A model generated the notes under the pieces. It saw nothing but the letters and a program-made list of their open reading frames with translations. It was not told where the DNA came from and searched no databases. A stretch of DNA of 64,000 nucleotides. It comes from Candidatus Omnitrophota bacterium (GTDB lineage Bacteria > Omnitrophota > Omnitrophia > Omnitrophales > JACROU01). The DNA lies in the NCBI GenBank assembly GCA_029261035.1, contig JAJDCD010000023.1:365126-429125 (forward strand). Direction: 5' to 3'. A program made the position numbers and the translations under genes. Shown in pieces: positions 25,831-52,736 of the stretch (the first letter of the stretch is position 1; each line of letters begins with the position of its first letter).

Positions 25831-26124
25831 ATGATTTTAAAGAAAGAAATGGATGTTAGTGGGCATTATGAAGAAATCAGCACAAAGACCGTTGATGAGA
25901 AGAGCCGTGTGACTATTGGAAATTTAGTTCATGAAAGCCAAAGGGTTAAAATTTATAAGAATAAAAAGGACGGAACTATTTTATTGGTGCCTTTAATAGA
26001 GATTCCTGAGAATGAAGCCTGGCTTTATAAAAATAAAAAAGCGATAACAATGCTTCAAAAGGGCATTGAAGAAGCGGCTCAAGGCAAAACTTCTAAGTTA
26101 GATGTAGATTCTCTGGGAGAATAA
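25831..26124 (+). CDS. Putative type II antitoxin (AbrB/MazE-like swapped-hairpin N-terminus)
   Basis: The protein is 97 aa with a DEKSRVTIG motif. It sits immediately upstream of, and 1 nt away from, a RelE/ParE-like ORF. Confidence 0.5.
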   Translation: MILKKEMDVSGHYEEISTKTVDEKSRVTIGNLVHESQRVKIYKNKKDGTILLVPLIEIPENEAWLYKNKKAITMLQKGIEEAAQGKTSKLDVDSLGE

Positions 26125-26125
26125 A

Positions 26126-26422
26126 TTGAAGTTTGAGATTGTCATAACAGACTCTGCATTGAAACAACTCAAAATACTCGGCAAGAATAAAACTTACAAA
26201 AAAAGATATAAGGCTGTATGCAAAACCCTTAAAGTTTTATCAGAAAACCCAAAGCATCCAGGGCTGAATACGCATCAGTATATAACTACTCAAGGACCAA
26301 AGGGAGAGAAGGTTTTTGAGGCTTACGCTGAGAATAAGACCTCAGCAGCTTATAGAGTATTCTGGTATTATGGTCCTCTTAAGAAACAAATAACAATTAT
26401 TGCTATAACCCCTCATCCTTAA
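26126..26422 (+). CDS. RelE/ParE-family toxin
   Basis: The protein is 98 aa with a basic N-terminus and C-terminal YRVFWYY…ITIIAITPH, the RelE/ParE hallmark (YRiiY…i.ii.i.HR). Confidence 0.6.
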   Translation: MKFEIVITDSALKQLKILGKNKTYKKRYKAVCKTLKVLSENPKHPGLNTHQYITTQGPKGEKVFEAYAENKTSAAYRVFWYYGPLKKQITIIAITPHP

Positions 26423-26786: not shown

Positions 26787-29441
26787 ATGAATAGTTTTAA
26801 TACGCAGAAACAAATCAGGGTTGGAAGTAAAAGTTATACTATTTTTAGTCTGTCAGAATTAGCCGGTGCGAATAATGTTGTCCGTAGAATGCCTTTTTCT
26901 TTAAAGGTGTTATTAGAAAATTTGCTTCGAAATGAAGATGGCAAGTTTGTTAAAAAAGAAGACATTGAAGGTTTTCTGAAATGGAAGCCAAAAGAAAAAA
27001 GTTCTCAGGAGATTTCTTACCGCCCTGCGCGCGTGCTCCTTCAAGATTTTACTGGGGTTCCTTGTGTTGTAGATTTAGCAGCAATGCGTGATGCTATTCA
27101 AAAAATGGGCGGGGATCCTAAAAAGATTAATCCTCTTCAAAGTGTGGACTTGGTGATCGATCACTCTGTGCAGATTGATTCTTTTGGAACGAGTACTTCT
27201 TTTCAAGAAAACGCAGATAAAGAATTCGATAGAAATAAAGAAAGGTATGCTTTTTTAAAATGGGGACAGAAAGCGCTTAGTAATTTTCGAGTCGTTCCAC
27301 CTGATACAGGAATTGTACATCAAGTAAATTTAGAATATTTAGCTCCTGTTGTTTTTCAGAAAGAACAAGATGGACAGACGCTGGCTTACCCCGATACGCT
27401 TGTGGGCACAGACTCTCATACGACGATGATTAATGGCCTCGGTGTTTTAGGTTGGGGGGTTGGAGGGATTGAAGCAGAAGCGGCGATGTTGGGCCAACCT
27501 GTTTCGATGCTGATTCCAGAAGTGGTTGGATTTAAATTGGTAGGAGAATTGAAAGAAGGCGCGACCGCCACAGACCTTGTGTTAACTATTGTGCAAATGC
27601 TCAGAAAAAGAGGGGTGGTTGATAAGTTTGTTGAGTTCTATGGTCCTGGGCTTTCTAAATTACCTTTAACGGATAGAGCTACTATTGCCAATATGGCACC
27701 AGAGTATGGTGCGACGATGGGCTTTTTCCCCGTGGATGATGAGACGCTCGTTTATCTTAAACTATCCGGTCGCAGTGAGGAGCAGATCGCTTTAGTTGAA
27801 GCTTTTTGTAAGGAGCAAGGTTTGTTTCGGGAAGATGGAAAAGAGGATCCCGAATTTTCGGATACACTTGAGCTAGATCTTACCTCCGTAGAGCCTTCTT
27901 TGGCTGGGCCTAAACGTCCTCAAGATCGTATTGCTCTAAAAGATTCTAAAAAAGCGTTTCAAGAGTTGCTTCATTCTTTACCCGCTGGAGATGCTGAAAA
28001 ATCTGTTGCTGTTTCAAATCACAGTGGAAATTATGATTTAAAACAAGGATCAGTTGTCATTGCATCGATTACGAGTTGTACGAACACTTCAAATCCTTCA
28101 GTGATGATTGCTGCGGGACTTGTGGCTAAAAAAGCAATTGAAAAAGGGTTAGAAGTGAAGCCGTGGGTCAAAACGAGCTTGGCGCCAGGTTCTAAAGTAG
28201 TTATTGAGTACTTAAAAGAGACGGGCTTACTTCCTTATTTAGAACAGCTTAAATTTAACTTGGTGGGGTTTGGTTGTGCTACGTGTATTGGAAATTCAGG
28301 GCCTCTTCCGGAACCTGTTGCTAACGGAATTAAAGATGGAGAGTTATTGGCTGTGAGTGTTCTTTCGGGAAATCGAAATTTTGAAGGCCGCATTCATCCA
28401 TTGGTCAAAGCAAACTATTTAGCATCTCCTCCTTTAGTGGTGGCGTATGCTTTGGCAGGGACTGCTAACTTTGATATGACTCAGGATGTGATTGGTAAGG
28501 ATAAAGAAGGAAACCCAGTGTACCTTAAAGATATTTGGCCAAGTACAGCTGAAGTGACAGAAGCATTAAAGCAAGTGAGTTCTGAAATGTTTACTTCTCA
28601 GTATGCCAATGTATTTGAAGGGGATGATAAATGGAGATCATTTAAAGTAGATGAAACGGATTGTTATGAGTGGGAAGCAAACTCTACTTATATTAAAAAT
28701 CCTCCTTTCTTCGAAAACATGTCTTCAGAACCTTCTGGATTGGAGGATGTTGAAGAGGCTCATGTTCTTGCTTTGTTGGGAGATTCTGTTACTACAGATC
28801 ATATATCACCAGCAGGTGCTATTCCTCCATCTGGGCCCGCAGGAAAATATTTAATTGCTCAAGGTGTAGATTCTAAAGACTTTAATTCTTTTGGAGCAAG
28901 AAGAGGAAATCATGAAGTAATGATGCGGGGAACATTTGCTAATATTCGTTTGCGTAATTTGTTGGCCCCTGGGACAGAAGGGGGTGTTACACGACATCTT
29001 CCTGATGGAGAAGGGATGTCCATTTATGATGCGGCCATGAAATACAAAGCAGAAAATAAACCTCTGATCGTAATTGCAGGTGCAGAGTATGGAACGGGTT
29101 CTTCTCGTGATTGGGCTGCGAAAGGAACACGGCTGTTGGGTGTTAAAGCAGTAATTGCTCAAAGTTATGAACGCATTCATCGAAGCAACTTAATTGGGAT
29201 GGGTGTTTTGCCTCTTCAGTTTAAAGAAGGAGAATCCGCAAGCAGTCTCGGATTAACAGGGGAAGAAAAGTTTACGATTACAGGGATTAAAGAAAATTTA
29301 ACTCCAGGAAAGACTTTGACGGTTCAGGCAGGCGATAAATCTTTTGAAGCTATTTGTCGGATTAATACACCTGAAGAACTAAATTATTATCGTCATGGCG
29401 GCATTTTGCAATATGTGCTTAGACAGTTAATGAATAAATAG
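26787..29441 (+). CDS. acnA: Aconitate hydratase (AcnA-type)
   Basis: The 884-aa protein has the cluster-ligand cysteines ([17 protein letters not shown]) and an SR aconitase signature (…[10 protein letters not shown]). Confidence 0.9.
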
Positions 29442-29601: not shown

Positions 29602-30390
29602 ATGAAACATTTGAGTTTATTATTCGTATTCCTTTTTTCAGCATTTATTTTTACAAGCAATGCGCATGCTGAAAATTTTGATACGAATTATTCTGGGTAC
29701 GCACAGGTTTTAAATAATTATTTAAAGGAAGGCTTCGTTAATTACAAAGCGTTAAAAAAATCCTCACAAGACTTAGAAGAATTTTTGGACAGCGTCAAAT
29801 TTTTGGAGCGCTCAGAATTTGATTCTTGGGATGATGAGAGCAAAATAGCATTTTGGCTTAACGTTTATAACGCATCTGCGATGCAAATTGTATTAATGAA
29901 TTATCCCATTAAGGGTGGCGGGGGTTTTAAAGCTTCTTTTTATCCTAAAAGCAGTATTCAACGTATTAAGAATGTTTGGAATAAAGATTTTATACAAGTC
30001 TTTGGAAGTAAAATGAGTTTGAATGATATTGAAAATGAAACGCTTAGAAAGAATTTTAAAGAACCTCGTATTCACTTTGCTTTAGTTTGCGCTTCGATTG
30101 GATGTCCGGTGTTAAAGGATGAGCCTTATATCGGAAAAAAACTAGAAGCACAATTAACAAGTCAGACACAGGGGTTTCTAGCGGACTCATCAAAGAATGA
30201 ATACAAATCTTCTGAGAGCACCTTTTATCTTTCTCCTATTTTTAAATGGTTTGGGGAAGACTTCGACTCTGCTGGGGGCCCAGTTCTTTTTGCTAAAAAA
30301 TATGTCAGCCCTGAAATCGCAGCAAACTTATCAAAGGATACCCGCATTCGCTTTTTGGATTATGACTGGTCCTTAAATGAGAAGAAATAG
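29602..30390 (+). CDS. Secreted DUF547-family protein
   Basis: A signal peptide is present, along with the IHFALVCASIGCP and IFKWFGEDF motifs typical of DUF547. Confidence 0.6.
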   Translation: MKHLSLLFVFLFSAFIFTSNAHAENFDTNYSGYAQVLNNYLKEGFVNYKALKKSSQDLEEFLDSVKFLERSEFDSWDDESKIAFWLNVYNASAMQIVLMNYPIKGGGGFKASFYPKSSIQRIKNVWNKDFIQVFGSKMSLNDIENETLRKNFKEPRIHFALVCASIGCPVLKDEPYIGKKLEAQLTSQTQGFLADSSKNEYKSSESTFYLSPIFKWFGEDFDSAGGPVLFAKKYVSPEIAANLSKDTRIRFLDYDWSLNEKK

Positions 30391-30405
30391 TTTTTGTAAC
30401 CGTAT

Positions 30406-31815
30406 ATGAAGATAAAGAGCAATTGGGTTCTTTTTGTTGCGGCATTCGTTTTATTTTTCTCCACGCTAGCCATTTCTCTATTAAGTCATAGTTTTATTTT
30501 AGGCGAAGGATACATAGATAGACCCATCCTTCGCTTTCTTTTTTTAGAAGCAGTGAGCTTTGTAGTATTTTTTATGGCTGTTGAATGGGTTCGTAAACAT
30601 GCTTCCAACTCTAGAAAGCTTGTGTGCTTTATTTTTCTTGTTGGAGTACTTCTTCGTTTTCTTTTTATTCCTTCTAATATGCTTCAAGAAGTTGACGCCT
30701 TTCGATACCTTTGGGATGGTCAAAGTGTGATTCAGCTATCGAATCCTTTTGCGCTTTCTCCAACAGAAGCGTTTGAAAATAAAGCGATTCCGGTGGAGAC
30801 TCTTTCCATGGATGCGGAAAGGGTATACAAGAGAATTAATTTCCCGGAAATTAGAACGATTTACCCCCCCTTAGCACAGTGTTTATTTGGATTGTCCCAA
30901 TGGATTTCACCTTGGCAGTTGGATGGGTGGCGGTGGATGATCTTCATGACAGAGATTTTAATTTTTATTCTACTTCTCTTAATCCTTCGCAAAGCACAAA
31001 TTAAATTTGAGTGGCTTTTGCTTTATGCGTGGTGCCCTTTAATTTTAAAAGAGTTCTCTAATAGTTTGCATTTGGATGTATTTTTGGTTTTGAGTTTTTG
31101 TTTATTGATCTATGCGTGTATGCAAAAATGGATTGTTCGTTCTTTTGTTTTTCTAGCACTAGGTGTGTTGGTTAAATTTACTCCTGTTATTTTTCTTCCT
31201 CTGATTTTTATTTGGGGGTGGAAAAAAGATCCCAAAAAAACATTGATAGGTTTTTTGAGTTTTTCCTCCGTCATCTTTTTGTTTTATTTCCCCTTTATAT
31301 TTGTAGGAGACGCTTTGTTCGAAGGGCTTAAGGCTTTTTCAACGTACTGGAGTGTTAATCAGAGTATCTTTTCTGTTGTCCACTTTCTTATGGATCAACT
31401 GCCTTGGAGTGAAGAGGTTGCTGCTAGGGCTAGTCGTATTTGCGTCGCTGGATTGTTAGGGGCTGCGGGAGGCGTTTTGTGTGTTCGGTTATTAAAAGCA
31501 AAAAAGAATGAAACTAAACATCTAATTTATTCTTTATTTATTCTCTTAACAACATTGTTTTTTATTGCACCAACAGGAAACCCTTGGTATTTTACTTGGG
31601 TTTTCCCGTTTTTAATTTTTATTCCTATGCGGTCTTTGGTTTTGTTCTCGGGACTTGTTTTTTTGTATTACTTAGATTTTTATTTTATGTATCGAGATCA
31701 AGATTCTATGTTTCGTTGGGTTCGTTTGGTTGAGTACAGTATTTTTTATTCTTGTTTTGTTTTAGAGTGTTATCTCTATCGAAACAAGAAAGAACAGTTG
31801 TTAAATTTAGGATAA
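30406..31815 (+). CDS. Polytopic integral membrane protein (DUF2029/GT87-like putative glycosyl- or mannosyltransferase)
   Basis: It has about 12 predicted TM helices and a conserved loop (NFPEIRTIYPPL). It sits in the rSAM-associated transferase cluster. Confidence 0.45.
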   Translation: MKIKSNWVLFVAAFVLFFSTLAISLLSHSFILGEGYIDRPILRFLFLEAVSFVVFFMAVEWVRKHASNSRKLVCFIFLVGVLLRFLFIPSNMLQEVDAFRYLWDGQSVIQLSNPFALSPTEAFENKAIPVETLSMDAERVYKRINFPEIRTIYPPLAQCLFGLSQWISPWQLDGWRWMIFMTEILIFILLLLILRKAQIKFEWLLLYAWCPLILKEFSNSLHLDVFLVLSFCLLIYACMQKWIVRSFVFLALGVLVKFTPVIFLPLIFIWGWKKDPKKTLIGFLSFSSVIFLFYFPFIFVGDALFEGLKAFSTYWSVNQSIFSVVHFLMDQLPWSEEVAARASRICVAGLLGAAGGVLCVRLLKAKKNETKHLIYSLFILLTTLFFIAPTGNPWYFTWVFPFLIFIPMRSLVLFSGLVFLYYLDFYFMYRDQDSMFRWVRLVEYSIFYSCFVLECYLYRNKKEQLLNLG

Positions 31816-31819
31816 GGAT

Positions 31820-32443
31820 ATGCCCAAAAGAGAACTTATTTATTTTGTAAAACACCCTACTCCCGGCAAAGTTAAAACACGTTTAGCAAAATCGATTGGG
31901 GAAGAAAAGGCCACAGAAATTTATAACCGATTGGCTAAACATCTTATGAAAAAAATTCTAGAAGGAGTTCCCTCAGAGACGCAAGTTACTATTTGTTTTG
32001 ATCCTCCTGAAAAAGAAGCTGAAATTCGTCAATGGCTTTCAGGCCCTTTCCAGTATCGTGTTCAAAAAGGAGATGGATTGGGAGATCGGTTAGAACATGC
32101 TTTTATTGAGAGCTTTCAAAAAGGATCAGAACATGTGGTTGTCATGGGGAGTGATATTTTAGGATTCAGACCCGAATTGATGCAAAAGGCATTCCTAAGC
32201 TTAGAACAGACGGATGTCGTTATAGGCCCCTCAGAAGATGGCGGCTATTATCTTATAGGGCTTTCAATAGACGAAACGGCTCTATTTAGAGAGATTCCAT
32301 GGAGTACGGATAATGTGCTTCGAGCAACACAGTCTGTGATACAGAAAAAGGGCTTGAGGAGCCTTTTAATCGATTCTTTAGAGGATCTAGATGAAATAGA
32401 GTCTTTAGAGAGAAATAGGGATGAAATTGAATCTATTTTATGA
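31820..32443 (+). CDS. DUF2064-family nucleotidyl/glycosyl-transferase-like protein ('rSAM/selenodomain-associated transferase 1' type)
   Basis: The N-terminus reads LIYFVKHPTPGKVKTRLAKSIG, and a GSDI motif is present. It is adjacent to the ArsM/ArsS-like genes. Confidence 0.65.
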   Translation: MPKRELIYFVKHPTPGKVKTRLAKSIGEEKATEIYNRLAKHLMKKILEGVPSETQVTICFDPPEKEAEIRQWLSGPFQYRVQKGDGLGDRLEHAFIESFQKGSEHVVVMGSDILGFRPELMQKAFLSLEQTDVVIGPSEDGGYYLIGLSIDETALFREIPWSTDNVLRATQSVIQKKGLRSLLIDSLEDLDEIESLERNRDEIESIL

Positions 32444-32543
32444 TTTTGGACGTAAATAGTGGTAATATGTACCGCTCTAAAAAGGGTATAGGCTGTTTCT
32501 GCATTAGATTAATAAGGTAAGAATGGCAAATATAACTTTTTTT

Positions 32544-32640
32544 GTATGCCAGGTCTAAAGACTCGGCACACTAGGTACCTGACTTAGGGGTGCCAAGTAA
32601 GAGTATGTGATTTGAATCAAACTACAATTATATGAGATGT
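32544..32640 (+). repeat. ~95-bp intergenic repeat, copy B
   Basis: About 85% identical to 6173-6271. It ends about 35 nt before the ArsM-like start codon. Confidence 0.7.
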
Positions 32641-32675
32641 TATTATTTTGTCCTAGGCTGGGAAAGGAAACAGAA

Positions 32676-33893
32676 ATGAAAACCGCAAATCGAAAAAACG
32701 GAAAACTAACTAAAAAAACCCTCTCAAACGGAAAAAAAACTACTTCTAATAGCTTGTCTGAGCTCGAAACGAGCGTAAAGGACCGTTATGCAAAAGGAGC
32801 TATTAAGAGAGAAGAGGCGCTTTGCTGCCCGGTGAGTTATGATCCTAAGTACTTAAAGGTTATTCCAAAAGAAATTATTGATAAAGACTATGGTTGCGGG
32901 GATCCTTCTCAGTATGTGAATGAAGGGGAAGTTGTTTTAGATTTAGGTTCTGGTGGGGGGAAAATCTGTTATATCGCTTCTCAAAAAGTAGGGCCGAAGG
33001 GGAAAGTGATTGGTGTGGATTTTAACCCAACAATGCTTCGTTTAGCTCGAAAACATCAAAAGGAAATGGCAAAAAGAATTGGTTGGGCTAACGTGGAATT
33101 TAAGCGAGGAAGAATTCAAGATCTTCAAACAGATTTTGACTTAGTAGATAAAAAAGTTTCTAATAAAAAAGTTAAGAATGCGGATGACTTTTTGAAGCTT
33201 CAAGGAAAAATTGATCAGCTTAAAAAAGAAACGCCATTAATTCCAGATAACTCTGTTGATGTGATTGTTTCTAATTGCGTTCTTAACCTTGTCGGAAACG
33301 ATGAAAGAAAACAATTATTTAAAGAAATGTTTCGTGTGTTGAAAAAAGGTGGACGTGTTGCAATATCTGATATTGTGTCTGATGAATTTGTTCCGCAAGA
33401 GCTTCAGGATGATGATTATTTGTGGAGTGGATGTATTTCAGGAGCATTTCAAGAAAAGGCATTCGTTGAAGCTTTTGAAGAGGTTGGTTTTTACGGAATA
33501 GAAATTGAAAAAAGAGATGAGAAACCTTGGCAAACAGTAAAAGGAATTGAGTTTCGTTCCGTGACGCTTATTGCTTACAAAGGTAAAGAAGGCCCTTGTT
33601 TAGAAAGAAATCAAGCTGTTATATACAAGGGGCCATGGAAACAAGTTCTAGATGATGATGGGCATATCTTAAGAAGAGGTGCTTTTACTGCTGTTTGTGA
33701 TAAAACATTTAACATTTATTCTCGCGCACCTTACAACAAAGATATTATTCCTGTTCCTCCAATTAAAAACATTTCCTTGTCTAAAGCAACAGAATTTGAT
33801 TGTCAACGTTCTGTTGAACGTCATCCCAAAGAGACAAAGGGGCAGGCTTATGACGCCACCATTGAAGCGTGCTCTACAGAAAGCTGTTGCTAG
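32676..33893 (+). CDS. ArsM-like SAM-dependent methyltransferase (arsenite methyltransferase family / 'rSAM-selenodomain-associated methyltransferase')
   Basis: The N-terminal cysteine pair (EALCCP) is present. So are the family boxes YDPKYLKVIPKEIIDKDYGCGDP and VLDLGSGGG, plus further cysteines at SNCVLNL and SGCISGA. AGGAAA lies before the ATG at 32676. Confidence 0.75.
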   Translation: MKTANRKNGKLTKKTLSNGKKTTSNSLSELETSVKDRYAKGAIKREEALCCPVSYDPKYLKVIPKEIIDKDYGCGDPSQYVNEGEVVLDLGSGGGKICYIASQKVGPKGKVIGVDFNPTMLRLARKHQKEMAKRIGWANVEFKRGRIQDLQTDFDLVDKKVSNKKVKNADDFLKLQGKIDQLKKETPLIPDNSVDVIVSNCVLNLVGNDERKQLFKEMFRVLKKGGRVAISDIVSDEFVPQELQDDDYLWSGCISGAFQEKAFVEAFEEVGFYGIEIEKRDEKPWQTVKGIEFRSVTLIAYKGKEGPCLERNQAVIYKGPWKQVLDDDGHILRRGAFTAVCDKTFNIYSRAPYNKDIIPVPPIKNISLSKATEFDCQRSVERHPKETKGQAYDATIEACSTESCC

Positions 33894-33941
33894 TTCGCTT
33901 TTAGCTAATGGCTGATAGCTATAAAAAGTAGGAGGCTCCTT

Positions 33942-34904
33942 TTGAATCGTTTTGAGACCGTTATAAAAGAAAATAATCTCGCCATTGAGAAGCGTGTAGA
34001 TACTCTTCAAGTTAACATTGGAAAACTTTGCAATCTTGCCTGCACGCATTGTCATGTGGAATCCAGTCCGTTAAAAGTAGAAGAAAATATGAATCGAGAA
34101 ACTGCAGAAGCGGTTGTTCGATTTATGGATCAAGTAGAAATTAAGACACTTGATCTTACGGGAGGGGCTCCGGAACTCAATCCTCATTTTAGATATGTTG
34201 TTACCGAAGCGTGTAAACGTAATATTCAGGTTATGGACCGGTGTAATTTAACGGTTCTGTATGAACCAGGCCAAGAAGATACGGCGCAATTTTTAGCAGA
34301 TAATAAAGTGGAAATTGTTGCTTCTTTACCGTGTTATCTTCAGGAGAATGTAGATAAACAAAGAGGAAAAGGGACTTTTGATAAATCCCTGGAAGCGTTA
34401 CAGCTGCTTAATAAATTGGGTTATGGTAAAGAAGAAACCGGATTGAAACTTAATTTGGTTTATAACCCAGTAGGACCTCATTTGCCACCAACTCAAGAAA
34501 GTTTAATCGGAGAATATAAGGCGCGTCTCTTAGAAGATTACGGCATTGTTTTTAACGACTTGTTTACAATAACTAATATGCCTATCAAGCGATATGAGAA
34601 ATACCTCAAAGCTTTTGATCAGTATGAGGAATATGTAGAGTTGTTGATCAATAGTTTTAATCCAAAAACAGTTTCAAGTTTAATGTGTATTAATACTTTA
34701 AGTGTGAGTTGGGATGGAAAGTTGTATGATTGTGATTTTAACCAAGCTTTGAATATGCGAGTAAATGGTCGTGACAATGGATCCAAACCTACTATATTTG
34801 ATGTGACTACAGATGAGTTAAAGCGCCATGAAGTTTTGACAGCAGATCATTGTTTTGCTTGTACCGCCGGTTCGGGTTCTTCCTGTACAGGATCTCTTGT
34901 TTAA
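33942..34904 (+). CDS. Radical SAM protein with C-terminal Cys-rich domain (ArsS-like, arsenosugar-biosynthesis-type rSAM)
   Basis: The CNLACTHCH box (CxxxCxxC) is near the N-terminus. The C-terminal Cys-rich tail reads CFACTAGSGSSCTGS. It starts on TTG with AGGAGG upstream. Confidence 0.75.
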   Translation: MNRFETVIKENNLAIEKRVDTLQVNIGKLCNLACTHCHVESSPLKVEENMNRETAEAVVRFMDQVEIKTLDLTGGAPELNPHFRYVVTEACKRNIQVMDRCNLTVLYEPGQEDTAQFLADNKVEIVASLPCYLQENVDKQRGKGTFDKSLEALQLLNKLGYGKEETGLKLNLVYNPVGPHLPPTQESLIGEYKARLLEDYGIVFNDLFTITNMPIKRYEKYLKAFDQYEEYVELLINSFNPKTVSSLMCINTLSVSWDGKLYDCDFNQALNMRVNGRDNGSKPTIFDVTTDELKRHEVLTADHCFACTAGSGSSCTGSLV

Positions 34905-34945
34905 CCTCATAAAGTTAGAAAGTTGAATTTCATTTCTTTTTAATT

Positions 34946-35614
34946 ATGAAAATCTCCGTAATTATCCCAGTCTATAATGAAGCAAAATGCATTGAGGGAA
35001 CCTTAGAAAACCTTGTGTCTAATCATAACTTTTTTGAAGTTATTGTTGTTGATGCTGGAAGCGAAGATCAAACAGAATCTATTGCATCTCGTTTTGCTAA
35101 AGTGATTCAATCAAAAAAAGGAAGAGCAGAGCAAATGAACCGAGGCGCCGAACTGGCTTTGGGAGACGTGCTTCTTTTTTTACATGCAGACACTTTTTTG
35201 CCTCCTAATGCATTTGATTTAATCAAAAATACATTAGAAACAACCTCCTATGAGGCGGGGCGATTTTATATGCAGTTTGATGACCGTCGTTGGTCTCTAC
35301 GTTTTTTTTCTACCTATACGCGTTTGAGATGCTTCTCCTATGGAGATCAGGCCCTATTTATACGTAAGAAATTATTTAATCGAATGAAAGGCTTTAGCAC
35401 TCAGGTTCCTTTTGAGGATGTGGATTTTTTTAGCCGCCTTTCAAAGGGAAAGAAGTTTGCTGTTATTAAAGAGCCGGTTATTACTTCTGCAAGAAGATTT
35501 GTGTCTCAAGGGACTTGGACTCAAAAGTGGATTAATCTTCTGCTCATTTGTTTTTACTACTTTGGATTTGATATTACAGGGTTGAAACGGAAGTTATACC
35601 CTGATCTTAGGTGA
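34946..35614 (+). CDS. Family 2 glycosyltransferase ('rSAM/selenodomain-associated transferase 2' type)
   Basis: It has the N-terminal motif ISVIIPVYNEAKCIE and a DAGSEDQT (DxD) motif. Confidence 0.7.
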   Translation: MKISVIIPVYNEAKCIEGTLENLVSNHNFFEVIVVDAGSEDQTESIASRFAKVIQSKKGRAEQMNRGAELALGDVLLFLHADTFLPPNAFDLIKNTLETTSYEAGRFYMQFDDRRWSLRFFSTYTRLRCFSYGDQALFIRKKLFNRMKGFSTQVPFEDVDFFSRLSKGKKFAVIKEPVITSARRFVSQGTWTQKWINLLLICFYYFGFDITGLKRKLYPDLR

Positions 35615-35682
35615 CAGAAGTCGGAGGTTAGTAAAAAGAAGAAGCTGCCACCTCGCAATGACGGTTTATAATTAAAAGGAGT

Positions 35683-36465
35683 TTGATTTTGAAATTGATT
35701 GTTGTTCTTTCATCGCTATCTTTTCTATTTTTATTAGAGCATTATTGGCCTCTTTTTAAAGGAAGAAAACATCATTTCAAACACGCCTTTCCAAATTTGT
35801 TGATAGCGGTAACGAATGGAATTGTAATAGCGGTATTTTTTTCTGGATTAACTATAGCTGTGATTGAATGGGCAAAGGTTCATGAATTTGGTTTATTGCG
35901 TTTAGTTTCGTTGCCGACATGGATGAATTTTGTATTGGCATTTGTCCTCTTTGATCTTTGGATGTATTTGTGGCATGTGCTGTTACATAAAGGCCCTTTG
36001 TGGCGATTGCATCGCATGCATCATAGTGATACGGAAATGGACACGACAACAGCTCTGCGGTTTCACCCCATTGAAATTGTGATTTCAACAACGGCACGGT
36101 TAGCTGTATTACCTTTATTAGGTTTAGATTTAATTCATTTAGTTGTCTACGAAATGTGTCTTCAACCCGTCATTTTTTTTCACCATAGCAACTGGTCTCT
36201 TCCAGAGAAAATAGACTCCATTTTAAGGTTGTTCATTGTGACTCCGAATATGCACCGAGTACATCATTCTCAGATTCTTAAGGAAACTAATTCGAACTAT
36301 TCGAGCATTCTCTCTATTTGGGATCGGGTTTTTGGCTCATTTATCCATCGGAAAGATGTGCTTGCTATTGATTATGGAATAGGCTATTTTGAAGGAGCAA
36401 AATGGCAGAAATTCTGGGGAATGTTAAAAATACCTTTTGTGTTATCTTTAAAGAGGAGGCAGTAA
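35683..36465 (+). CDS. Fatty acid hydroxylase / sterol desaturase superfamily membrane enzyme
   Basis: It has the histidine boxes HVLLHK, HRMHHSD and HRVHHSQ in a multi-TM protein. It starts on TTG. Confidence 0.7.
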   Translation: MILKLIVVLSSLSFLFLLEHYWPLFKGRKHHFKHAFPNLLIAVTNGIVIAVFFSGLTIAVIEWAKVHEFGLLRLVSLPTWMNFVLAFVLFDLWMYLWHVLLHKGPLWRLHRMHHSDTEMDTTTALRFHPIEIVISTTARLAVLPLLGLDLIHLVVYEMCLQPVIFFHHSNWSLPEKIDSILRLFIVTPNMHRVHHSQILKETNSNYSSILSIWDRVFGSFIHRKDVLAIDYGIGYFEGAKWQKFWGMLKIPFVLSLKRRQ

Positions 36466-37442
36466 TGAGATATGGTTTGATTAGTATCATTATCATAGGA
36501 GGTTTCGTTTTTACTCTTAGTTTATTAAATAAGAATGTAGAAGCTCAACCTTTTTCTGCTGAGAGACAGTTTAGCGTTCAGTATTCGGCCACAATGAAGG
36601 CATTTCCTCAGACGGCGCAGTCCATCAAAGTTTGGGTTCCTCTAGCGAGCAGTCGAGATGGTCAAGAAATCATCAGCCGTAAGATTACAGTTCCTGTTCC
36701 TTATGAAATTAAAAAAGACTCTAAACTCAATAATGAAATTTTGTATTTTGAAGTTCCGGTAGATCAACTAGATTTAATCACAGTTGTTATTGACTATGAG
36801 GCTAAACTGAATCAAGAGTCGTATCGAAATTCTAGTTTAACAGAAGATTTAACCCCATTTCTGGATCCATCTAAGCTTATGGTTGTTAATTCTGAAGTTA
36901 AACAACGGGCTCAAGAAGCAACGCAAGGAAAAGGTGCTGTTCAGCAAAAAGCCAAAGGTATATTTGATTACGTGATTAATCATATGAGTTACGACAAAAG
37001 TGTTCCTGGTTATGGAAAAGGAGACACGATACGTGCTTGTGATATTGCTAAAGGGAATTGCACCGATTTCCATTCTTTATTTATATCGATGTCTTTAGCT
37101 GAGAACATCCCCGCTCGTTTTAAAATAGGGCTTCCAATTCCAGAAAGTATGGATGAAGGCAAAATAAAAGGTTACCACTGTTGGGCAGAGTATTATCACC
37201 CTGAAGAGGGTTGGCAGCAAGTAGATGCTTCTGAAGCAAAGAAGAACCCAGAAAGAAAAGAGACTTATTTTGGTGGGATAGATACGGGTAAGTTTTTAAT
37301 CAGTGTTGGGAGAGATGTGGAGCTTTCTCCTCCAAATGCTGGAGACCCTGTGAATATTTTCTTTTATCCTTACGTCGAAGTAGATGGAGAGCCTTTTAAC
37401 GAGATTAGCACAGAGTTCTATTTTAAAAACAAAACGGCTTAA
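36465..37442 (+). CDS. Secreted transglutaminase-like cysteine protease domain protein
   Basis: A signal peptide is present. The catalytic Cys region is GNCTDFHSLF, the His region is GYHCWAEYY and a downstream Asp follows. Its start overlaps the upstream stop (TAATG). Confidence 0.65.
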   Translation: MRYGLISIIIIGGFVFTLSLLNKNVEAQPFSAERQFSVQYSATMKAFPQTAQSIKVWVPLASSRDGQEIISRKITVPVPYEIKKDSKLNNEILYFEVPVDQLDLITVVIDYEAKLNQESYRNSSLTEDLTPFLDPSKLMVVNSEVKQRAQEATQGKGAVQQKAKGIFDYVINHMSYDKSVPGYGKGDTIRACDIAKGNCTDFHSLFISMSLAENIPARFKIGLPIPESMDEGKIKGYHCWAEYYHPEEGWQQVDASEAKKNPERKETYFGGIDTGKFLISVGRDVELSPPNAGDPVNIFFYPYVEVDGEPFNEISTEFYFKNKTA

Positions 37443-37480
37443 ATTAATAAATTTTTAAGCTATTCAAACAGGAGAAAGAT

Positions 37481-37714
37481 ATGAAAAACTTACTTAAAAG
37501 CTTTTTGTTGGTAATGCTTGTATTTGTTTTCTTTGCAGCGCCTCATTCAGTTGTTCAAGCCGGTGAACATGGTGGAACAGCGGTGATTGAAGACGTCGTG
37601 GAGGAAATGGATGAAGTGATAGAAGACGGCATGGAGGAAATGGATGAAGTAGTTGAAGAAGGTGAAGAAGTTGTGAAAGAACATGGTGGTTCTCATCATG
37701 ACGGTTCTCACTAG
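37481..37714 (+). CDS. Small secreted acidic protein with His-rich termini (putative periplasmic metal-binding peptide)
   Basis: A signal peptide is present. The mature protein begins GEHGG and ends EHGGSHHDGSH, with (V/M)(E/D)E repeats between. Confidence 0.5.
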   Translation: MKNLLKSFLLVMLVFVFFAAPHSVVQAGEHGGTAVIEDVVEEMDEVIEDGMEEMDEVVEEGEEVVKEHGGSHHDGSH

Positions 37715-37725
37715 ATTCTAAGTTG

Positions 37726-37770
37726 GAATATGCGCAAGATGGCTTGTTTTTTTCTTGCGCATATTCTTTT
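37726..37770 (+). terminator. Strong rho-independent terminator
   Basis: A 13-bp perfect stem (gaatatgcgcaag / cttgcgcatattc) with a T-rich loop is followed by TTTT. Confidence 0.75.
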
Positions 37771-37809
37771 GCAACAAGTCCTATTTAAAACTAAATAAAG
37801 AGGTGTTTT

Positions 37810-38214
37810 ATGTTCGTTCGAAAAATTACTTTTATGGTAGCATTGTTAATTTTTAGTTTAAGTTTTGGTGCTTTGTGGGCTCAGCCTTCTGCTGAAGGAT
37901 TGAGACAAACAATTCGGGACTATATCGCTGATGAAGAGGCATTTATGGGAGCTTTTTCTGTTGTCGATCCTAGAACAGGCAATGAAAGAACCTTAGAGCT
38001 TATTCGTGTCCACGAGCGTGTTGGGAAAACAGGGGATTACTATTACTCTTGTACGGATATGAAAGATGTTAATAGCGGAGATGAGTTGGATTTAGATTTT
38101 GATATTGAAGAAAAAAACGGAAAATTAAGTGTGGTTGAAGTGCGTATTCATAAAGATAATGGAAGTCCTCGTTACACTTATGATGCAAATGACAACTTAG
38201 TTCCTTTGAGCTAA
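37810..38214 (+). CDS. Secreted hypothetical protein
   Basis: It has a signal peptide and no recognisable family. Confidence 0.45.
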
Positions 38215-38228
38215 CTTACCTTATATAT

Positions 38229-40421
38229 ATGACAAAATATTCTTTTATACATTTAACAATTGTATTTGCTTTGTTGTTTTGTCATATACAACCTTTGGGT
38301 GCTGATATGCAATCGAATAAATATACCAATCGACTGAGCCAAGAGAAAAGCCCGTACTTGCTTCAACATGCACACAATCCTGTGGATTGGTATGCTTGGA
38401 ATGAGGAAGCTTTTGAAAAGGCACGGAAAGAAGATAAGCCTATTTTTCTTTCTGTGGGGTATTCAACCTGCCATTGGTGTCATGTTATGGAAAAAGAGTC
38501 TTTTGAAAATGAAGCGATTGCTCAGATTTTGAATGATCATTTTGTTTCCATTAAAGTCGACAGAGAAGAGCGTCCAGACGTAGACCAAGTTTATATGCAG
38601 GCTGTCATGGCGATGTCGGGTTCGGGTGGTTGGCCGATGAGTGTTTTTTTAACTCCAGATTTAAAACCCTTTTATGGAGGAACTTATTTTCCACCTGAGG
38701 ATAAATGGGGGAAGCCTGGGTTTGCGACTGTGCTTCGTTCGATTTCGGATAAATGGAAAGAGGACCGAGGCGTATTGCTCAAATCGAGTGAAGAGATTTC
38801 CGAATTTTTAAAAGCACAAACTCAAAATAAGACAGAAGAAAGCAAAGAGCTTACGGAAGATGTGTTGAAAAAAGCATTTCATCAGTATGAGTCTCAATAC
38901 GATGCGGAGCTGGGTGGTTTTGGCCCCGCACCTAAATTCCCTCGAACTCCTATTGTTTCTTTTCTTCTTCGCTATTGGAAAAGGGAAGGGGACGTGAAGG
39001 CAATCGAAATGTCTGAAAGAACTCTCCAGATGATGGCGTTGGGAGGGATGTATGACCATCTTGGAGGCGGGTTTCATCGCTATTCAACCGATAAAAAATG
39101 GCATATTCCTCATTTTGAAAAAATGCTTTACGATCAAGCTTTGATATCAAAAACTTATTTAGAAGCCTACCAAGCAACTCAGAATTCTTTTTATGCCGAT
39201 GTCGTGGGAGACATTTTTAATTATGTGCTCAGGGAGATGACAAGCTCCGAAGGGGGTTTCTATTCTGCAGAGGATGCGGACAGCGCTGCTGACGAAGATA
39301 AGCCAGAGGATAAAACGGAAGGTGCTTTTTATGTTTGGGAAGAATCGGAAATTAAAAAAGCTTTAGGCAAAAAAAATGCAGAGATTTTTAATTTTGCTTT
39401 TGGGGTTTTGCCTGGAGGAAATGCAGAAGTAGATCCTCATGGAGATTTTAAAGATAAGAATACTTTATATGTAGCGAATTTAGTTGAAGGTGTAGCGAAA
39501 AAATTTGATCGGACAGAACCAGAAATTCTAGAAATTTTAAAAAGTGGCAGAAAAAAATTATTTGAGCAACGCAGAGAAAGGTTGCGGCCTTATTTAGATG
39601 ATAAAGTGCTTACAGATTGGAATGGTTTAATGATTTCCAGTTTGGCTTTTGGTTCAAGAGTGTTGGGAGATGATAATTACAAGCAAGCAGCAATGAAAGC
39701 CGCTGATTTTATTTTGGATAAATTAGTAACCCCTGAAGGTCGGTTGCTTCATCGTTATCGCGATGGAGAATCAGGGATAACGGGTTTTATAGAGGATTAT
39801 GCTTTTTTCATTTATGGTCTTTTGGATCTTTATGAAGCGACTTTCGAAGTTCGTTATTTAAAAGAAGCAATTCGGCTTGCTCAAGAAATGAAGCGCCTGT
39901 TTTGGGATAAAGAAAAAGGCGGCTTCTTTTTTACAGCTAGCGATGCAGAGCAGCTTATTTCTCCTATGAAAGAAATTTATGATGGAGCTATTCCTTCAGG
40001 AAACTCTATGGCTACATTAGTTCTTTTAAGACTGAATCGAATGACCATGGAATCTGATTGGAATGAAGATGCTTTAAAAACGTTAAGTGCTTTTTCTTCA
40101 GAAATAGAGCGGATGCCTTCAGGGTACCCCCAGATGTTGATTGCCTTAGATTTTTCTTTAGGACCCAATAGAGAAGTTGTTTTGGCAGCGGAGAGCGCTA
40201 AGGATGTTCAACCTATGGTTGATGAGTTGTTTGGATCATTTCTACCCAATAAAGTTGTTTTATTCCATTCAGACAAAGAATCTAAGATAGAAGAAGTGGT
40301 TCCTTTTATTGAAGGGTACCTCCCTATGGGAGGAAAACCTACGGCTTATGTGTGTCAAAACTTTGCCTGCCAATTACCTACGACAGAATTAACATCCTTT
40401 AAACAGCTCCTGAAAAAATAG
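38229..40421 (+). CDS. Thioredoxin-domain protein of the DUF255/YyaL family (N-terminal thioredoxin fold plus (alpha/alpha)6 barrel)
   Basis: A signal peptide is present. The hallmark [10 protein letters not shown] motif is followed by a long helical repeat region. Confidence 0.75.
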
Positions 40422-52538: not shown

Positions 52539-52623
52539 AGGAGAGGAAGGGATTCGAACCCCCGGTCCCGTGAGGGACAACAGTTTTCGAAACTGCCGCC
52601 TTCGACCACTCAGCCACCTCTCC
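52539..52623 (-). tRNA. tRNA-Ser (anticodon CGA)
   Basis: The cloverleaf folds by hand. The acceptor is GGAGAGG/CCUCUCC, the D-arm is Ser-type, the anticodon loop is UUCGAAA, the variable arm is long and the T-arm is GGGGG-TTCGAAT-CCCTT. CCA is not encoded. Confidence 0.75.
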
Positions 52624-52632
52624 ACCCCCAAA

Positions 52633-52736
52633 GTTAGATCTCATATTTTAACGTTAGATTCGTACCTACATAATGTTATTTGGCACTCACAAGTTTAGTA
52701 CCGAGTGTGCCAGGCCCCTCAATGGCCGGCCTGATA
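52633..52736 (-). repeat. ~95-bp intergenic repeat, copy C (reverse orientation)
   Basis: Its reverse complement matches copy A, including the aatctaac-N10-gagatctaac tail. That tail ends 6 nt upstream of the tRNA-Ser 5' end. Confidence 0.6.

What the first reader, a model, noticed from the sequence alone, without database searches (positions are those of the whole stretch)
29602..36465. ArsM-like plus ArsS-like rSAM with two transferases, extended by a fatty-acid hydroxylase and large membrane proteins
The four-gene set consists of a DUF2064 transferase, an ArsM-like methyltransferase with the N-terminal CC pair, a radical-SAM protein with a Cys-rich tail, and a GT2 transferase. It matches the conserved 'rSAM/selenodomain-associated' set now linked to arsenosugar biosynthesis. 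Here it is contiguous with a histidine-box fatty-acid hydroxylase or desaturase-family enzyme and a 12-TM DUF2029-like putative glycosyltransferase. A secreted DUF547 protein and a secreted transglutaminase-like protease are also adjacent. This suggests the product may be a modified arsenolipid or glycolipid rather than a free arsenosugar. Copy B of the 95-bp repeat sits directly upstream of the methyltransferase.
Basis: partly seen in the sequence, partly recalled or inferred. Interest (0 to 1): 0.6.

Follow-up and report, generated by a model that had tools for sequence, protein, structure and literature searches.

The report
Extended arsenosugar-type gene cluster, Omnitrophota
This is a real organo-arsenic ("arsenosugar-type") biosynthesis gene cluster from a probable Omnitrophota bacterium, and its conserved membrane and periplasmic extra genes hint, without proving it, that the arsenic sugar ends up attached to something in the cell envelope.

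Summary
Twelve co-directional genes at 29602-40421 include ArsS (TIGR04167, 437 bits vs cut-off 300), TIGR04282 (191 vs 134) and TIGR04283 (225 vs 182). There is also an ArsM-fold methyltransferase with all arsenic-binding cysteines, which passes no curated ArsM model; its best match is the arsinothricin-type ArsM (383 vs 500).

The 12-TM protein is a GT-C-fold glycosyltransferase (pLDDT 92.7; best matches ALG3, PimE, ArnT). In sister Omnitrophota clusters it is fused to a TIGR04283-like GT2.

Near ArsS in 80 species-representative genomes, FA_hydroxylase (7), DUF547 (6), PHO4 (8), VTT + Pyr_redox (15) and MTA phosphorylase (7) recur. Unrelated window neighbours score 0-1. The GT-C, transglutaminase-like and small periplasmic proteins are essentially specific to Omnitrophota.

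The reciprocal test weakens the lipid reading. Three of three FA_hydroxylase homologues outside Omnitrophota have no ArsS within 10 kb, and one sits in a VTT-Pyr_redox-TIGR04283-FAH module without ArsS.

The "95-bp repeat" is a 113-nt element with three copies. It is inserted relative to the closest relative and is not specific to this cluster.

Verdict: known core, uncharacterised conserved extension. The arsenolipid or envelope product is plausible but unproven.

The parts
29602..30390 (+). DUF547 protein with an N-terminal signal-like sequence; first gene of the cluster, after the aconitase terminator hairpin
   Evidence: PF04784, 96.4 bits. It holds the same position in L001, L003, L007, L009 and L091. 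It lies within 10 kb of ArsS in 6 of 80 genome loci.
30406..31815 (+). 469-aa GT-C-fold membrane glycosyltransferase (MptA_B/GT87-like)
   Evidence: AF2 model with pLDDT 92.7. Foldseek best matches are PIG-U, ALG3, GPI-MT-I, PimE and ArnT. Homologues carry PF26314. Residues E95, D97, R100, Y101, W103 and D104 are invariant. It is fused to a GT2 in P0121/P0122/P0126/P0143.
31820..32443 (+). TIGR04282 / DUF2064 transferase (CofC-like nucleotide-diphospho-sugar-transferase fold)
   Evidence: TIGR04282, 191.3 bits against 134; CofC at E 2e-7. PDB 3CGX at E 3e-32.
32511..32623 (+). Copy B of a 113-nt repeated intergenic element (copy A at 6140-6252 on +; copy C at about 52653-52775 on -)
   Evidence: It is absent from the orthologous 84-nt spacer of L001. 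There is no Rfam match.
32637..33893 (+). ArsM-fold methyltransferase with a Cys-rich C-terminal extension (probable start at 32676)
   Evidence: NF040538, 382.6 bits against 500. CmArsM alignment. Foldseek match to 6cx6 at E 4e-25. Conserved Cys at 63, 64, 87, 111, 214, 266, 321, 354, 389, 412, 417 and 418.
33942..34904 (+). ArsS radical-SAM enzyme (Cys form)
   Evidence: TIGR04167, 437.2 bits against 300. PF04055 plus PF12345. Invariant cysteines. The codon at the GSSC position is TGT.
34946..35614 (+). TIGR04283 GT2 glycosyltransferase
   Evidence: 225.3 bits against 182. PF00535.
35683..36465 (+). Membrane di-iron FA_hydroxylase-family enzyme ('sterol desaturase family')
   Evidence: PF04116, 98.7 bits. 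OlsE scores only 68 against 475. It is adjacent to ArsS in L014 and L025, and within 10 kb in 7 of 80 loci.
36465..37442 (+). Periplasmic transglutaminase-like (Cys-His-Asp) protein. The start codon probably overlaps the FAH stop by 1 nt; the longest ORF starts at 36402.
   Evidence: PF01841, 74 bits. Syntenic in L001, L003 and L007, and also present in L029.
37481..37714 (+). 77-aa secreted acidic, His-rich peptide with 'EHGG' repeats
   Evidence: ORF. It aligns with the unannotated genes at the same position in L001, L003 and L007.
37810..38214 (+). 134-aa secreted protein of no known family, with invariant C81, H68 and H114
   Evidence: Alignment with L001, L003, L007 and L029; the L003 protein is fused to a Cu/Zn-SOD domain.
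38229..40421 (+). 730-aa DUF255/Thioredox_DsbH protein with an N-terminal signal-like sequence
   Evidence: PF03190, 270 bits. Syntenic in L001 and L009, and present in L066.

Best explanation
The region is a chromosomal organo-arsenical biosynthesis cluster of the arsenosugar type, in a probable Omnitrophota genome.

What is shown:
- The rSAM enzyme is a member of the ArsS family.
- The methyltransferase has the ArsM fold and the full set of arsenic-binding cysteines.
- The two transferases are the ArsS-associated families TIGR04282 and TIGR04283.
- The 12-TM protein has the GT-C fold.
- The extended gene order is conserved in related genomes.

Inferred pathway:
1. The ArsM-like enzyme methylates As(III). 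Its terminal C-x4-CC tail, together with the N-terminal CC pair, may capture or hand over As(III).
2. ArsS adds the 5'-deoxyadenosyl group of SAM to the methylated arsenical. This gives 5'-deoxy-5'-dimethylarsinoyl-adenosine, an analogue of methylthioadenosine.
3. Adenine is removed. In several other phyla an MTA phosphorylase is encoded in the cluster; here a housekeeping enzyme would have to do this. The product would be arsenoribose-1-phosphate.
4. The CofC-like TIGR04282 protein activates the sugar phosphate with a nucleotide.
5. The TIGR04283 GT2 transfers the arsenoribosyl group to an acceptor at the inner face of the membrane.
6. In this lineage the GT-C enzyme then passes a lipid-phosphate-linked sugar to an acceptor on the periplasmic side.
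7. The di-iron hydroxylase and the periplasmic DUF547, transglutaminase-like, EHGG, 134-aa and DsbH-like proteins modify or handle that acceptor.

The final product would then be an envelope-associated arsenoribosyl conjugate (lipid or glycan), not only a free arsenosugar.
For: Core identities:
- ArsS, TIGR04282 and TIGR04283 all pass their cut-offs.
- The ArsM cysteines and fold are confirmed.
- The ArsS reaction, DMAs(III) to DDMAA, is taken from the literature (PMC13598754, read; PMC8552651, read).

Operon-like spacing: gaps run from -1 to 95 nt, except for 232 nt at the repeat insertion.

Synteny: the whole block is syntenic in L001, L003/4, L007, L009 and L091.

GT-C protein: GT-C fold, and GT-C::GT2 fusions located inside ArsM/ArsS clusters. 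The fused GT2 is a TIGR04283 paralogue.

Co-occurrence within 10 kb of ArsS in 80 species-representative genomes:
- FAH 7, DUF547 6, PHO4 8, VTT + Pyr_redox 15, MTAP 7.
- Control window neighbours: aconitase 1, Rieske 0, GH1 0.

Adjacency: FAH lies directly beside ArsS in Burkholderiaceae and Verrucomicrobiota loci. FAH-TGase-sec134 recurs in a Verrucomicrobiae locus.

MTAP passes TIGR01694 (286 against 275) inside the L018 cluster.
Against: - No biochemical data exist for any step after ArsS.
- The methyltransferase fails every curated ArsM cut-off: NF040538 383 against 500, NF008823 208 against 263, NF038099 138 against 400.
- The window lacks MTAP, VTT, Pyr_redox, PHO4, DsrE and the small GT2 partner of the GT-C enzyme that sister clusters carry.
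- The closest relative, L001, lacks the GT-C gene altogether.
- FAH homologues at about 50% identity in three other phyla have no ArsS within 10 kb. In L090 a genuine TIGR04283 GT2 sits with VTT, Pyr_redox and FAH next to MsrA/B, with no ArsS, ArsM or DUF2064.
- Outside Omnitrophota, the GT-C, TGase, sec134 and DsbH genes are at control level.
- Cyanobacterial ArsS loci in the sample carry none of the transferases.
- FA_hydroxylase enzymes need O2 and ArsS is oxygen-sensitive (general knowledge of both families).
Confidence: 0.55

Rival explanations
1. The cluster is two systems side by side. The four-gene core makes a soluble arsenosugar or a detoxification product. The GT-C, FAH, DUF547, transglutaminase-like, small periplasmic and DsbH-like genes belong to a separate system for remodelling envelope lipids or for redox stress. 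That system is merely co-located and co-regulated with the core in this lineage.
For: - L090: VTT-Pyr_redox-TIGR04283-FAH lies next to MsrB, MsrA, SOD and AhpC, without ArsS.
- L088: FAH lies next to an LpxL-like lipid A acyltransferase.
- L089: FAH lies with DsrE/DsrH and Pyr_redox.
- GT-C, TGase, sec134 and DsbH are at control frequency near ArsS outside Omnitrophota.
- L001 lacks the GT-C gene.
- The sec134 protein is fused to a Cu/Zn SOD in L003.
Against: - The GT-C protein is fused to a TIGR04283-like GT2 and sits between Pyr_redox/CMD and DUF2064/ArsM inside the ArsS cluster.
- The accessory genes are interleaved with the core genes, not appended to them.
- FAH and DUF547 lie directly beside ArsS in distant phyla.
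- FAH and DUF547 are enriched over the control genes.
Confidence: 0.3
2. The pathway's true substrate is not arsenic. It could be another soft metalloid or chalcogen (Se, Sb, Te) or a thiol compound, with the ArsM-like and ArsS-like enzymes forming a seleno- or other organo-element sugar.
For: - The TIGR04167 family includes selenoproteins and was first linked to selenium (PMC13188914, read).
- The methyltransferase passes no arsenic-specific model.
- Sister clusters carry DsrE, a MerA/Lpd-like disulfide reductase, and MerR/MerT.
- The sampled part of the window has no arsR, arsC or acr3.
Against: - The only demonstrated ArsS chemistry is on DMAs(III).
- All four ArsM arsenic-binding cysteines are conserved in 117-120 of 120 homologues.
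- The closest structures are ArsM and AS3MT.
- A PHO4/PiT-type phosphate (arsenate-like) transporter is embedded in sister clusters.
Confidence: 0.1
3. The cluster makes an arsinothricin-like antibiotic, because the methyltransferase's best profile match is the arsinothricin ArsM.
For: NF040538 is the top NCBIfam hit, at 382.6 bits.
Against: - The score is below the 500-bit cut-off.
- The rSAM partner is ArsS, not the non-canonical ArsL. No ArsL- or ArsQ-like gene was seen in the ORFs examined.
- The arsinothricin cluster is arsQML (PMC8552651).
Confidence: 0.03

Closest known systems
Synechocystis sp. PCC 6803 ArsM + ArsS arsenosugar pathway (first steps)
   Same: An ArsM-fold methyltransferase with the conserved cysteines, plus a TIGR04167 ArsS radical-SAM enzyme. 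The expected chemistry is As(III) to DMAs(III) to 5'-deoxy-5'-dimethylarsinoyl-adenosine.
   Different: - Here the two genes are adjacent and embedded in a 12-gene block.
- The methyltransferase belongs to a different, longer clade with a Cys-rich C-terminal extension, and fails NF038099.
- Cyanobacterial ArsS loci in my sample have no TIGR04282, TIGR04283, FAH or GT-C nearby.
- I did not retrieve the Synechocystis locus itself.
NCBIfam 'arsenosugar biosynthesis' cassette (TIGR04167 ArsS, TIGR04282, TIGR04283, TIGR04169 peroxidase-like, NF038099 ArsM)
   Same: TIGR04167, TIGR04282 and TIGR04283 all pass their cut-offs and are co-directional.
   Different: - There is no TIGR04169 gene in the window.
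- The methyltransferase does not reach NF038099. Neither did any other ArsS-adjacent methyltransferase I tested.
- The window adds GT-C, FAH, DUF547, TGase-like and small periplasmic proteins, which are not part of the named cassette.
Three-component lipid-carrier glycosylation systems (ArnC/ArnT, GtrB/GtrA/Gtr, Ppm1/PimE, DPM1/ALG3)
   Same: - A small GT2 is paired with, and in relatives fused to, a GT-C-fold membrane transferase.
- A VTT/DedA-family membrane protein is present in sister clusters.
- The structural matches are to ALG3, PimE and ArnT.
   Different: - No donor or acceptor is known.
- The window itself lacks the small GT2 and the VTT gene.
- Sequence identity to characterised GT-C enzymes is only 9-16%.
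- The polyprenyl-phosphate carrier is an inference.
Burkholderia gladioli arsinothricin ArsM (NF040538)
   Same: It is the best-scoring curated model for the methyltransferase, covering profile positions 24-325 of 356. It has four conserved cysteines.
   Different: The score is below the cut-off (383 against 500). The partner rSAM enzyme is ArsS, not ArsL. This clade has an extra C-terminal tail of about 60 residues that ends in C-x4-CC.
OlsE / sterol-desaturase-type FA_hydroxylase family
   Same: PF04116 domain, three His boxes and a membrane protein of about 260 aa.
   Different: OlsE scores only 68 bits against 475. The substrate is unknown. The genomic contexts are arsenic, redox or lipid A related, not ornithine-lipid related.

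Membership tests
ArsS (TIGR04167, arsenosugar radical SAM (seleno)protein) | Full-length score above the curated cut-off | tested here: met
   437.2 bits against 300, over profile positions 4-303 of 303.
ArsS (TIGR04167) | CX3CX2C radical-SAM motif plus a DUF3641 C-terminal domain with conserved cysteines | tested here: met
   C30, C34 and C37 are invariant, as are C249, C264, C304, C307 and C315, in the 5-sequence alignment. PF04055 plus PF12345, 177 bits.
ArsS (TIGR04167) | Sec or Cys at the C-terminal GxxU/C position | tested here: met
   Cys (TGT) in the window. Cys in 85 of 85 scorable relatives, with no TGA. The GxxU motif is from PMC13188914.
ArsS (TIGR04167) | Adenosylation of DMAs(III) to DDMAA | not testable with these tools
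   The activity is known for ArsS from the literature. It has not been measured for this protein.
ArsM / AS3MT As(III) SAM methyltransferases | Four conserved arsenic-binding or catalytic cysteines | tested here: met
   C87, C214 and C266 align with the YGCG, SNCV and GxC motifs of CmArsM. The C63/C64 pair lies at the position of the first cysteine. These are conserved in 97-100% of 120 homologues.
ArsM / AS3MT As(III) SAM methyltransferases | ArsM three-domain fold | tested here: met
   Foldseek best matches are CmArsM 6cx6/4fr0 (E about 4e-25 to 4e-24), CrArsM and human AS3MT. The next methyltransferase class is at E about 1e-12. Model pLDDT is 84.7.
ArsM / AS3MT As(III) SAM methyltransferases | Score above a curated NCBIfam ArsM cut-off (NF008823, NF038099, NF040538) | tested here: not met
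   207.9 against 263; 138.3 against 400; 382.6 against 500. The other ArsS-adjacent methyltransferases I tested also fail NF038099.
TIGR04282 (DUF2064) ArsS-associated transferase | Score above the cut-off and adjacency to ArsS | tested here: met
   191.3 bits against 134. It lies 1.5 kb upstream of ArsS on the same strand.
TIGR04283 ArsS-associated GT2 | Score above the cut-off and adjacency to ArsS | tested here: met
   225.3 bits against 182. It begins 41 nt downstream of ArsS.
TIGR04290 (Rta_06860-type methyltransferase of the original four-gene set) | Profile match | tested here: inconclusive
   It is not among the 25 best of 37 NCBIfam hits, all of which have E <= 1e-4. I could not confirm that the model is still in the library.
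GT-C glycosyltransferases (GT87 / MptA_B-like) | GT-C membrane fold | tested here: met
   Model pLDDT 92.7. Foldseek probability is 1.00 to ALG3, GPI-MT-I, PimE, ArnT and PglB, with TM-score up to 0.55.
GT-C glycosyltransferases (GT87 / MptA_B-like) | Pfam family match on the protein itself | tested here: not met
   No significant Pfam hit, even at E <= 10. Homologues carry precomputed PF26314/PF09594 hits.
GT-C glycosyltransferases (GT87 / MptA_B-like) | Catalytic acidic residue in the first extracytoplasmic loop | tested here: inconclusive
   E95, D97 and D104 are invariant in the first long loop. I did not check their superposition on a characterised catalytic Asp, or the membrane topology.
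FA_hydroxylase superfamily (PF04116) | Domain score and His-box motifs | tested here: met
   98.7 bits against 31. HVLLH, HRMHH and HRVHH are visible in the translation.
OlsE ornithine-lipid hydroxylase (NF052566) | Equivalog cut-off | tested here: not met
   68.3 bits against 475.
Arsinothricin cluster (arsQML) | Non-canonical rSAM ArsL and permease ArsQ next to ArsM | tested here: not met
   The adjacent rSAM enzyme is ArsS. No ArsL- or ArsQ-like gene was seen in the ORFs examined.

The most novel reading that the evidence does not exclude
Omnitrophota and some other phyla run an envelope-directed arsenoribosylation pathway. The ArsS product is de-adenylated (MTAP-type step) and nucleotide-activated (TIGR04282). 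A TIGR04283-type GT2 loads it onto a polyprenyl-phosphate or lipid carrier. A dedicated GT-C enzyme then transfers it on the periplasmic face to a hydroxylated lipid or glycan acceptor. This would be the first genetically defined route to an arsenolipid or arseno-glycoconjugate. The methyltransferase's terminal C-x4-CC tail would act as a built-in As(III) chaperone, mirroring the CC-x4-C site that I recall from ArsD (recalled from memory, not tested here).
Probability: 0.2. Interest if true: 0.8.

Novelty: new variant of a known kind. Interest (0 to 1): 0.5.

Why it matters
The steps after ArsS in arsenosugar biosynthesis, and the whole route to arsenosugar phospholipids and other arsenolipids, have no assigned enzymes in the literature I could search.

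This cluster and its relatives supply a concrete, testable candidate list:
- MTA phosphorylase for adenine removal.
- A CofC-like activating enzyme.
- One or two TIGR04283 GT2s.
- A GT-C transferase that is sometimes fused to the GT2.
- A di-iron lipid hydroxylase.
- A VTT/DedA protein and an Lpd/MerA-like reductase.

The analysis also shows two further things. The most frequent ArsS-linked methyltransferase in the sample (15 of 27) is a distinct ArsM clade that no curated model covers. And the name "arsenosugar biosynthesis glycosyltransferase" for TIGR04283 rests on gene context, which does not always include ArsS.

If the envelope-conjugate reading is right, uncultured groundwater and sediment bacteria such as Omnitrophota would be an unrecognised source of lipid-bound arsenic.

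Tried and rejected
- **Source record not retrievable.** Exact-sequence look-ups of the window's ArsS, methyltransferase (P0001) and the GT-C paralogue P0150 found no indexed contig. The cluster look-up gave no accession or name. The source genome and the paralogue's context therefore could not be read. The organism is inferred only from its named relatives, which are Omnitrophota.
- **Rfam.** At gathering thresholds it finds only four tRNAs in the window. A permissive scan of the methyltransferase leader gave one chance-level hit. The repeat is therefore not a known riboswitch or sRNA.
- **Repeat core searches.** The exact repeat core has no match in the 87 loci or in metagenome contigs.
- **Sec in ArsS relatives.** None was found in 85 sequences.
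- **Arsinothricin reading.** Rejected, because there is no ArsL.
- **NF038099 as a membership test.** It is too narrow to be informative, since every ArsS-linked methyltransferase I tested fails it.
- **Pfam on the 12-TM protein.** At E <= 10 it gave only noise: EpsG at 0.06 and SNARE at 0.38.
- **Solved structures.** The PDB sequence search gave nothing for ArsS, DUF547 or FAH. It gave only a structural-genomics entry for DUF2064.
- **Literature.** Xue et al. 2019 (PMC6467767) is not held. Searches found no paper describing the extended cluster, an MTAP link, or arsenic metabolism in Omnitrophota.
- **Promoter/terminator scan.** It gave fewer promoter-like sites than shuffles did (17 against 30), so it was not used.

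Full report
**1. What is there**

Between the aconitase gene (26787-29441) and 40421, the + strand carries twelve tightly spaced genes. The gaps run from -1 to 95 nt, with one exception of 232 nt. In order, the genes are:
- DUF547
- a 469-aa multi-TM protein
- DUF2064
- a methyltransferase
- a radical-SAM protein
- a GT2
- an FA_hydroxylase
- a transglutaminase-core protein
- a 77-aa peptide
- a 134-aa protein
- a 730-aa DUF255/DsbH-like protein

Profile searches give the following:
- ArsS, TIGR04167: 437.2 bits against a cut-off of 300
- TIGR04282: 191.3 against 134
- TIGR04283: 225.3 against 182
- PF04784 (DUF547)
- PF04116 (FA_hydroxylase): 98.7 bits
- PF01841 (Transglut_core)
- PF03190 (Thioredox_DsbH)

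**2. The methyltransferase**

That test fails to refute.
- Against CmArsM (4FS8/4KW7), the YGCG, SNCV and GxC motifs align with C87, C214 and C266. The CC pair C63/C64 lies at the position of the first cysteine.
- In 120 homologues these positions are 97-100% Cys.
- The AF2 model (pLDDT 84.7) matches ArsM and AS3MT structures at E of about 1e-25 to 1e-21. Any other methyltransferase matches at about 1e-12.

Even so, the protein passes no curated ArsM model. NF040538 (arsinothricin ArsM) scores 382.6 against 500. NF008823 scores 207.9 against 263. NF038099 (arsenosugar ArsM) scores 138.3 against 400. NF038099 is also failed by every other ArsS-adjacent methyltransferase I tested, so it is a narrow model.

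The window's clade is 380-420 aa long and mostly from Omnitrophota, but it also occurs in Verrucomicrobiota, Acidobacteriota, Planctomycetota and Myxococcota. It has six additional conserved cysteines in its C-terminal part: C321, C354, C389, C412, C417 and C418. The protein ends in C-x4-CC. Three clustered thiols would suit an As(III) site, but that is an inference.

Among 80 species-representative ArsS loci, 15 carry this clade next to ArsS and 12 carry a different ArsM-like protein. The likely true start codon is 32676. It is preceded by AAGGA, and homologues begin there.

**3. ArsS**

The second refutation test was that the rSAM protein would belong to another subfamily. That also fails to refute. 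The protein has a full-length TIGR04167 match, the CX3CX2C motif and five invariant C-terminal cysteines.

The GSSC codon is TGT here, and it is TGT or TGC in 85 of 85 scorable relatives. Sec forms (motif GxxU; PMC13188914) are absent from this sample.

The ArsS reaction is adenosylation of DMAs(III) to 5'-deoxy-5'-dimethylarsinoyl-adenosine. This comes from the literature and has not been shown for this protein.

**4. The 12-TM protein**

It has no Pfam hit of its own. Its homologues carry PF26314 (MptA_B) and sometimes PF09594 (GT87).

The AF2 model is confident, with pLDDT 92.7 and pTM 0.93. Its best solved-structure matches are all GT-C-fold proteins: PIG-U, ALG3, GPI mannosyltransferase I, PimE, ArnT and PglB. 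E95, D97, R100, Y101, W103 and D104 are invariant in the first long loop.

Six homologues (706-723 aa) are fusions of this protein with a GT2 domain. The fused GT2 corresponds to a second, small GT2 found in sister clusters (54-80% identity). That small GT2 is a TIGR04283 paralogue, scoring 129 bits against a cut-off of 182.

One such fusion lies inside a complete cluster, L091: DUF547-VTT-Pyr_redox-CMD-[GT-C::GT2]-DUF2064-ArsM-like-PHO4-ArsS-GT2-FAH. This is the strongest evidence that the membrane protein belongs to the pathway.

Two caveats apply. The window lacks the small GT2, and the closest relative, L001, lacks the GT-C gene.

**5. Is the extension conserved?**

In related Omnitrophota-type contigs the order is kept, with extra genes interleaved: VTT, an Lpd/MerA-like Pyr_redox enzyme, GH1, the small GT2, PHO4 and DsrE.

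I scanned one genome per species with an ArsS alignment. That gave 594 relatives, of which 80 loci were kept, spanning many phyla. I then ran tblastn within 10 kb of ArsS, requiring E < 1e-6 and at least 40% query coverage. Only 54 of the 80 loci are 15 kb or longer. The counts are:

| Gene near ArsS | Loci of 80 |
|---|---|
| TIGR04283-like GT2 | 25 |
| DUF2064 | 21 |
| VTT | 19 |
| Pyr_redox | 19 |
| VTT and Pyr_redox together | 15 |
| PHO4 | 8 |
| FAH | 7 |
| MTAP | 7 |
| DUF547 | 6 |
| TIGR04169-like CMD | 6 |
| TGase | 2 |
| DsbH | 2 |
| GT-C | 1 |
| sec134 | 1 |
| Control: aconitase | 1 |
| Control: Rieske | 0 |
| Control: GH1 | 0 |

The controls are unrelated neighbours from the window. 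FAH lies directly beside ArsS in L014 (Burkholderiaceae) and L025 (Verrucomicrobiota). FAH-TGase-sec134 recurs in L029 (Verrucomicrobiae).

So FAH and DUF547 are recurrent partners of ArsS across phyla. The GT-C, TGase and small periplasmic proteins are essentially lineage-specific.

**6. The reciprocal test weakens a dedicated role for FAH**

FAH homologues at about 50% identity exist in Planctomycetota, Betaproteobacteria and Nitrospirota, among others. In all three long contigs I examined, no ArsS lies within 10 kb.
- L088: FAH follows an LpxL-like lipid A acyltransferase.
- L089: FAH sits with ArsR-type regulators, DsrE/DsrH and a Pyr_redox enzyme.
- L090: the order is VTT-Pyr_redox-GT2-FAH-MsrB-MsrA. 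The GT2 is a genuine TIGR04283 member at 226.5 bits against 182.

The VTT-Pyr_redox-TIGR04283-FAH module can therefore stand apart from ArsS, at least locally. The name given to TIGR04283 rests on gene context.

**7. A lead for the missing step**

In L018 (Methylophilaceae), an MTA phosphorylase sits between the ArsM-like gene and the GT2/DUF2064 pair. It scores 286.2 bits on TIGR01694 against a cut-off of 274.85. MTAP homologues lie within 10 kb of ArsS in seven loci.

The ArsS product is a methylthioadenosine analogue, so phosphorolysis to arsenoribose-1-phosphate is chemically natural. The CofC-like DUF2064 protein (CofC at E 2e-7; PDB 3CGX) could then activate the sugar phosphate with a nucleotide for the GT2. 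All of this is inference. The window itself has no MTAP.

**8. The repeat**

It is 113 nt long at 81% identity, not 95 bp. Its two-hairpin core occurs far more often than chance would give: two matches against zero expected.

A third, diverged copy lies on the minus strand at about 52653-52775. It ends at the 5' end of tRNA-Ser and keeps the first hairpin using different bases.

All three copies face the downstream gene. The orthologous spacer in L001 is only 84 nt and lacks the element, although both ends of the two spacers align. The element has no Rfam match and no match in other loci or in metagenomes.

It is best read as a lineage-specific inserted element that sits upstream of genes. It may carry a promoter or form a structured leader. 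It is not a regulator specific to the arsenic genes.

**9. Context**

The rest of the window is housekeeping sequence and is syntenic with L001. It includes LpxD, TrkH/TrkA, a GT2, a methyltransferase, RmlC, a Rieske protein and aconitase. The ORFs I examined include no arsR, arsC, acr3 or ArsL. The cluster is therefore chromosomal and vertically inherited in this lineage.

**10. Verdict**

The core is a known kind: the ArsM/ArsS arsenosugar-type cassette. This is a new variant in three respects.
- It carries a methyltransferase clade that curated models do not cover.
- It carries a conserved membrane and periplasmic extension.
- That extension includes a GT-C transferase linked to the cassette by gene fusion.

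The FAH evidence cuts both ways.

Noticed in passing
window 52653-52775 (-), next to tRNA-Ser at 52539-52623 (-): A third, diverged copy of the 113-nt repeat ends at the 5' end of a tRNA-Ser gene. All three copies face the downstream gene, and the first hairpin is kept by different bases in this copy.
   Followed up: partly
window 37481-37714 (+): An unannotated 77-aa ORF encodes a signal peptide plus an acidic, His-rich peptide with EHGG repeats. It is conserved at the same position in L001, L003 and L007 and looks like a periplasmic metal-binding peptide.
   Followed up: partly
window 37810-38214 (+); L003 16656-17495: The 134-aa secreted protein has no known family and has invariant Cys and His residues. 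In L003 it is fused to a Cu/Zn superoxide dismutase domain. A 30%-identical homologue lies beside TGase and FAH in a Verrucomicrobiae locus (L029).
   Followed up: partly
L018 13834-14679; also L010, L012, L014, L037, L050, L085: An MTA phosphorylase (TIGR01694, above its cut-off in L018) is encoded inside or next to ArsS clusters in Proteobacteria and Myxococcota. It is a candidate for the unassigned adenine-removal step of arsenosugar synthesis.
   Followed up: partly
L090 7167-11983: A VTT-Pyr_redox-TIGR04283 GT2-FAH module is followed by MsrB and MsrA, with no ArsS, ArsM or DUF2064 within 10 kb. The 'arsenosugar' GT2 family therefore also occurs in an oxidative-stress context.
   Followed up: partly
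outside the window, on the same 630,564-bp contig (protein P0150): The source genome encodes a second, 40%-identical paralogue of the GT-C membrane protein elsewhere. Its neighbourhood could not be retrieved.
   Followed up: partly
window 58615-64000: tRNA-Asn (58801-58876) is flanked by two 67-nt direct repeats (58615-58681 and 58729-58795). It is followed by a large serine recombinase (58835-60520, -) and a Replic_Relax protein (62954-63649). GC skew turns negative at 58-62 kb. This looks like an integrated mobile element.
   Followed up: no
window 25831-26422 (+): Two small overlapping ORFs (97 and 98 aa) lie between RmlC and the Rieske gene. Those two genes are adjacent in L001. This may be an inserted toxin-antitoxin pair; I did not test it against family libraries.
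   Followed up: no
window 2128-3408 (+): A GH1 glycoside hydrolase is 47% identical to the GH1 gene embedded in the L003/L004 ArsS cluster, but here it lies 27 kb away from the cluster.
   Followed up: no
window 12390-12749 (+): Three diverged 57-nt direct repeats (67-72% identity) lie inside the 406-aa ORF at 12158-13378, so the encoded protein is repetitive.
   Followed up: no
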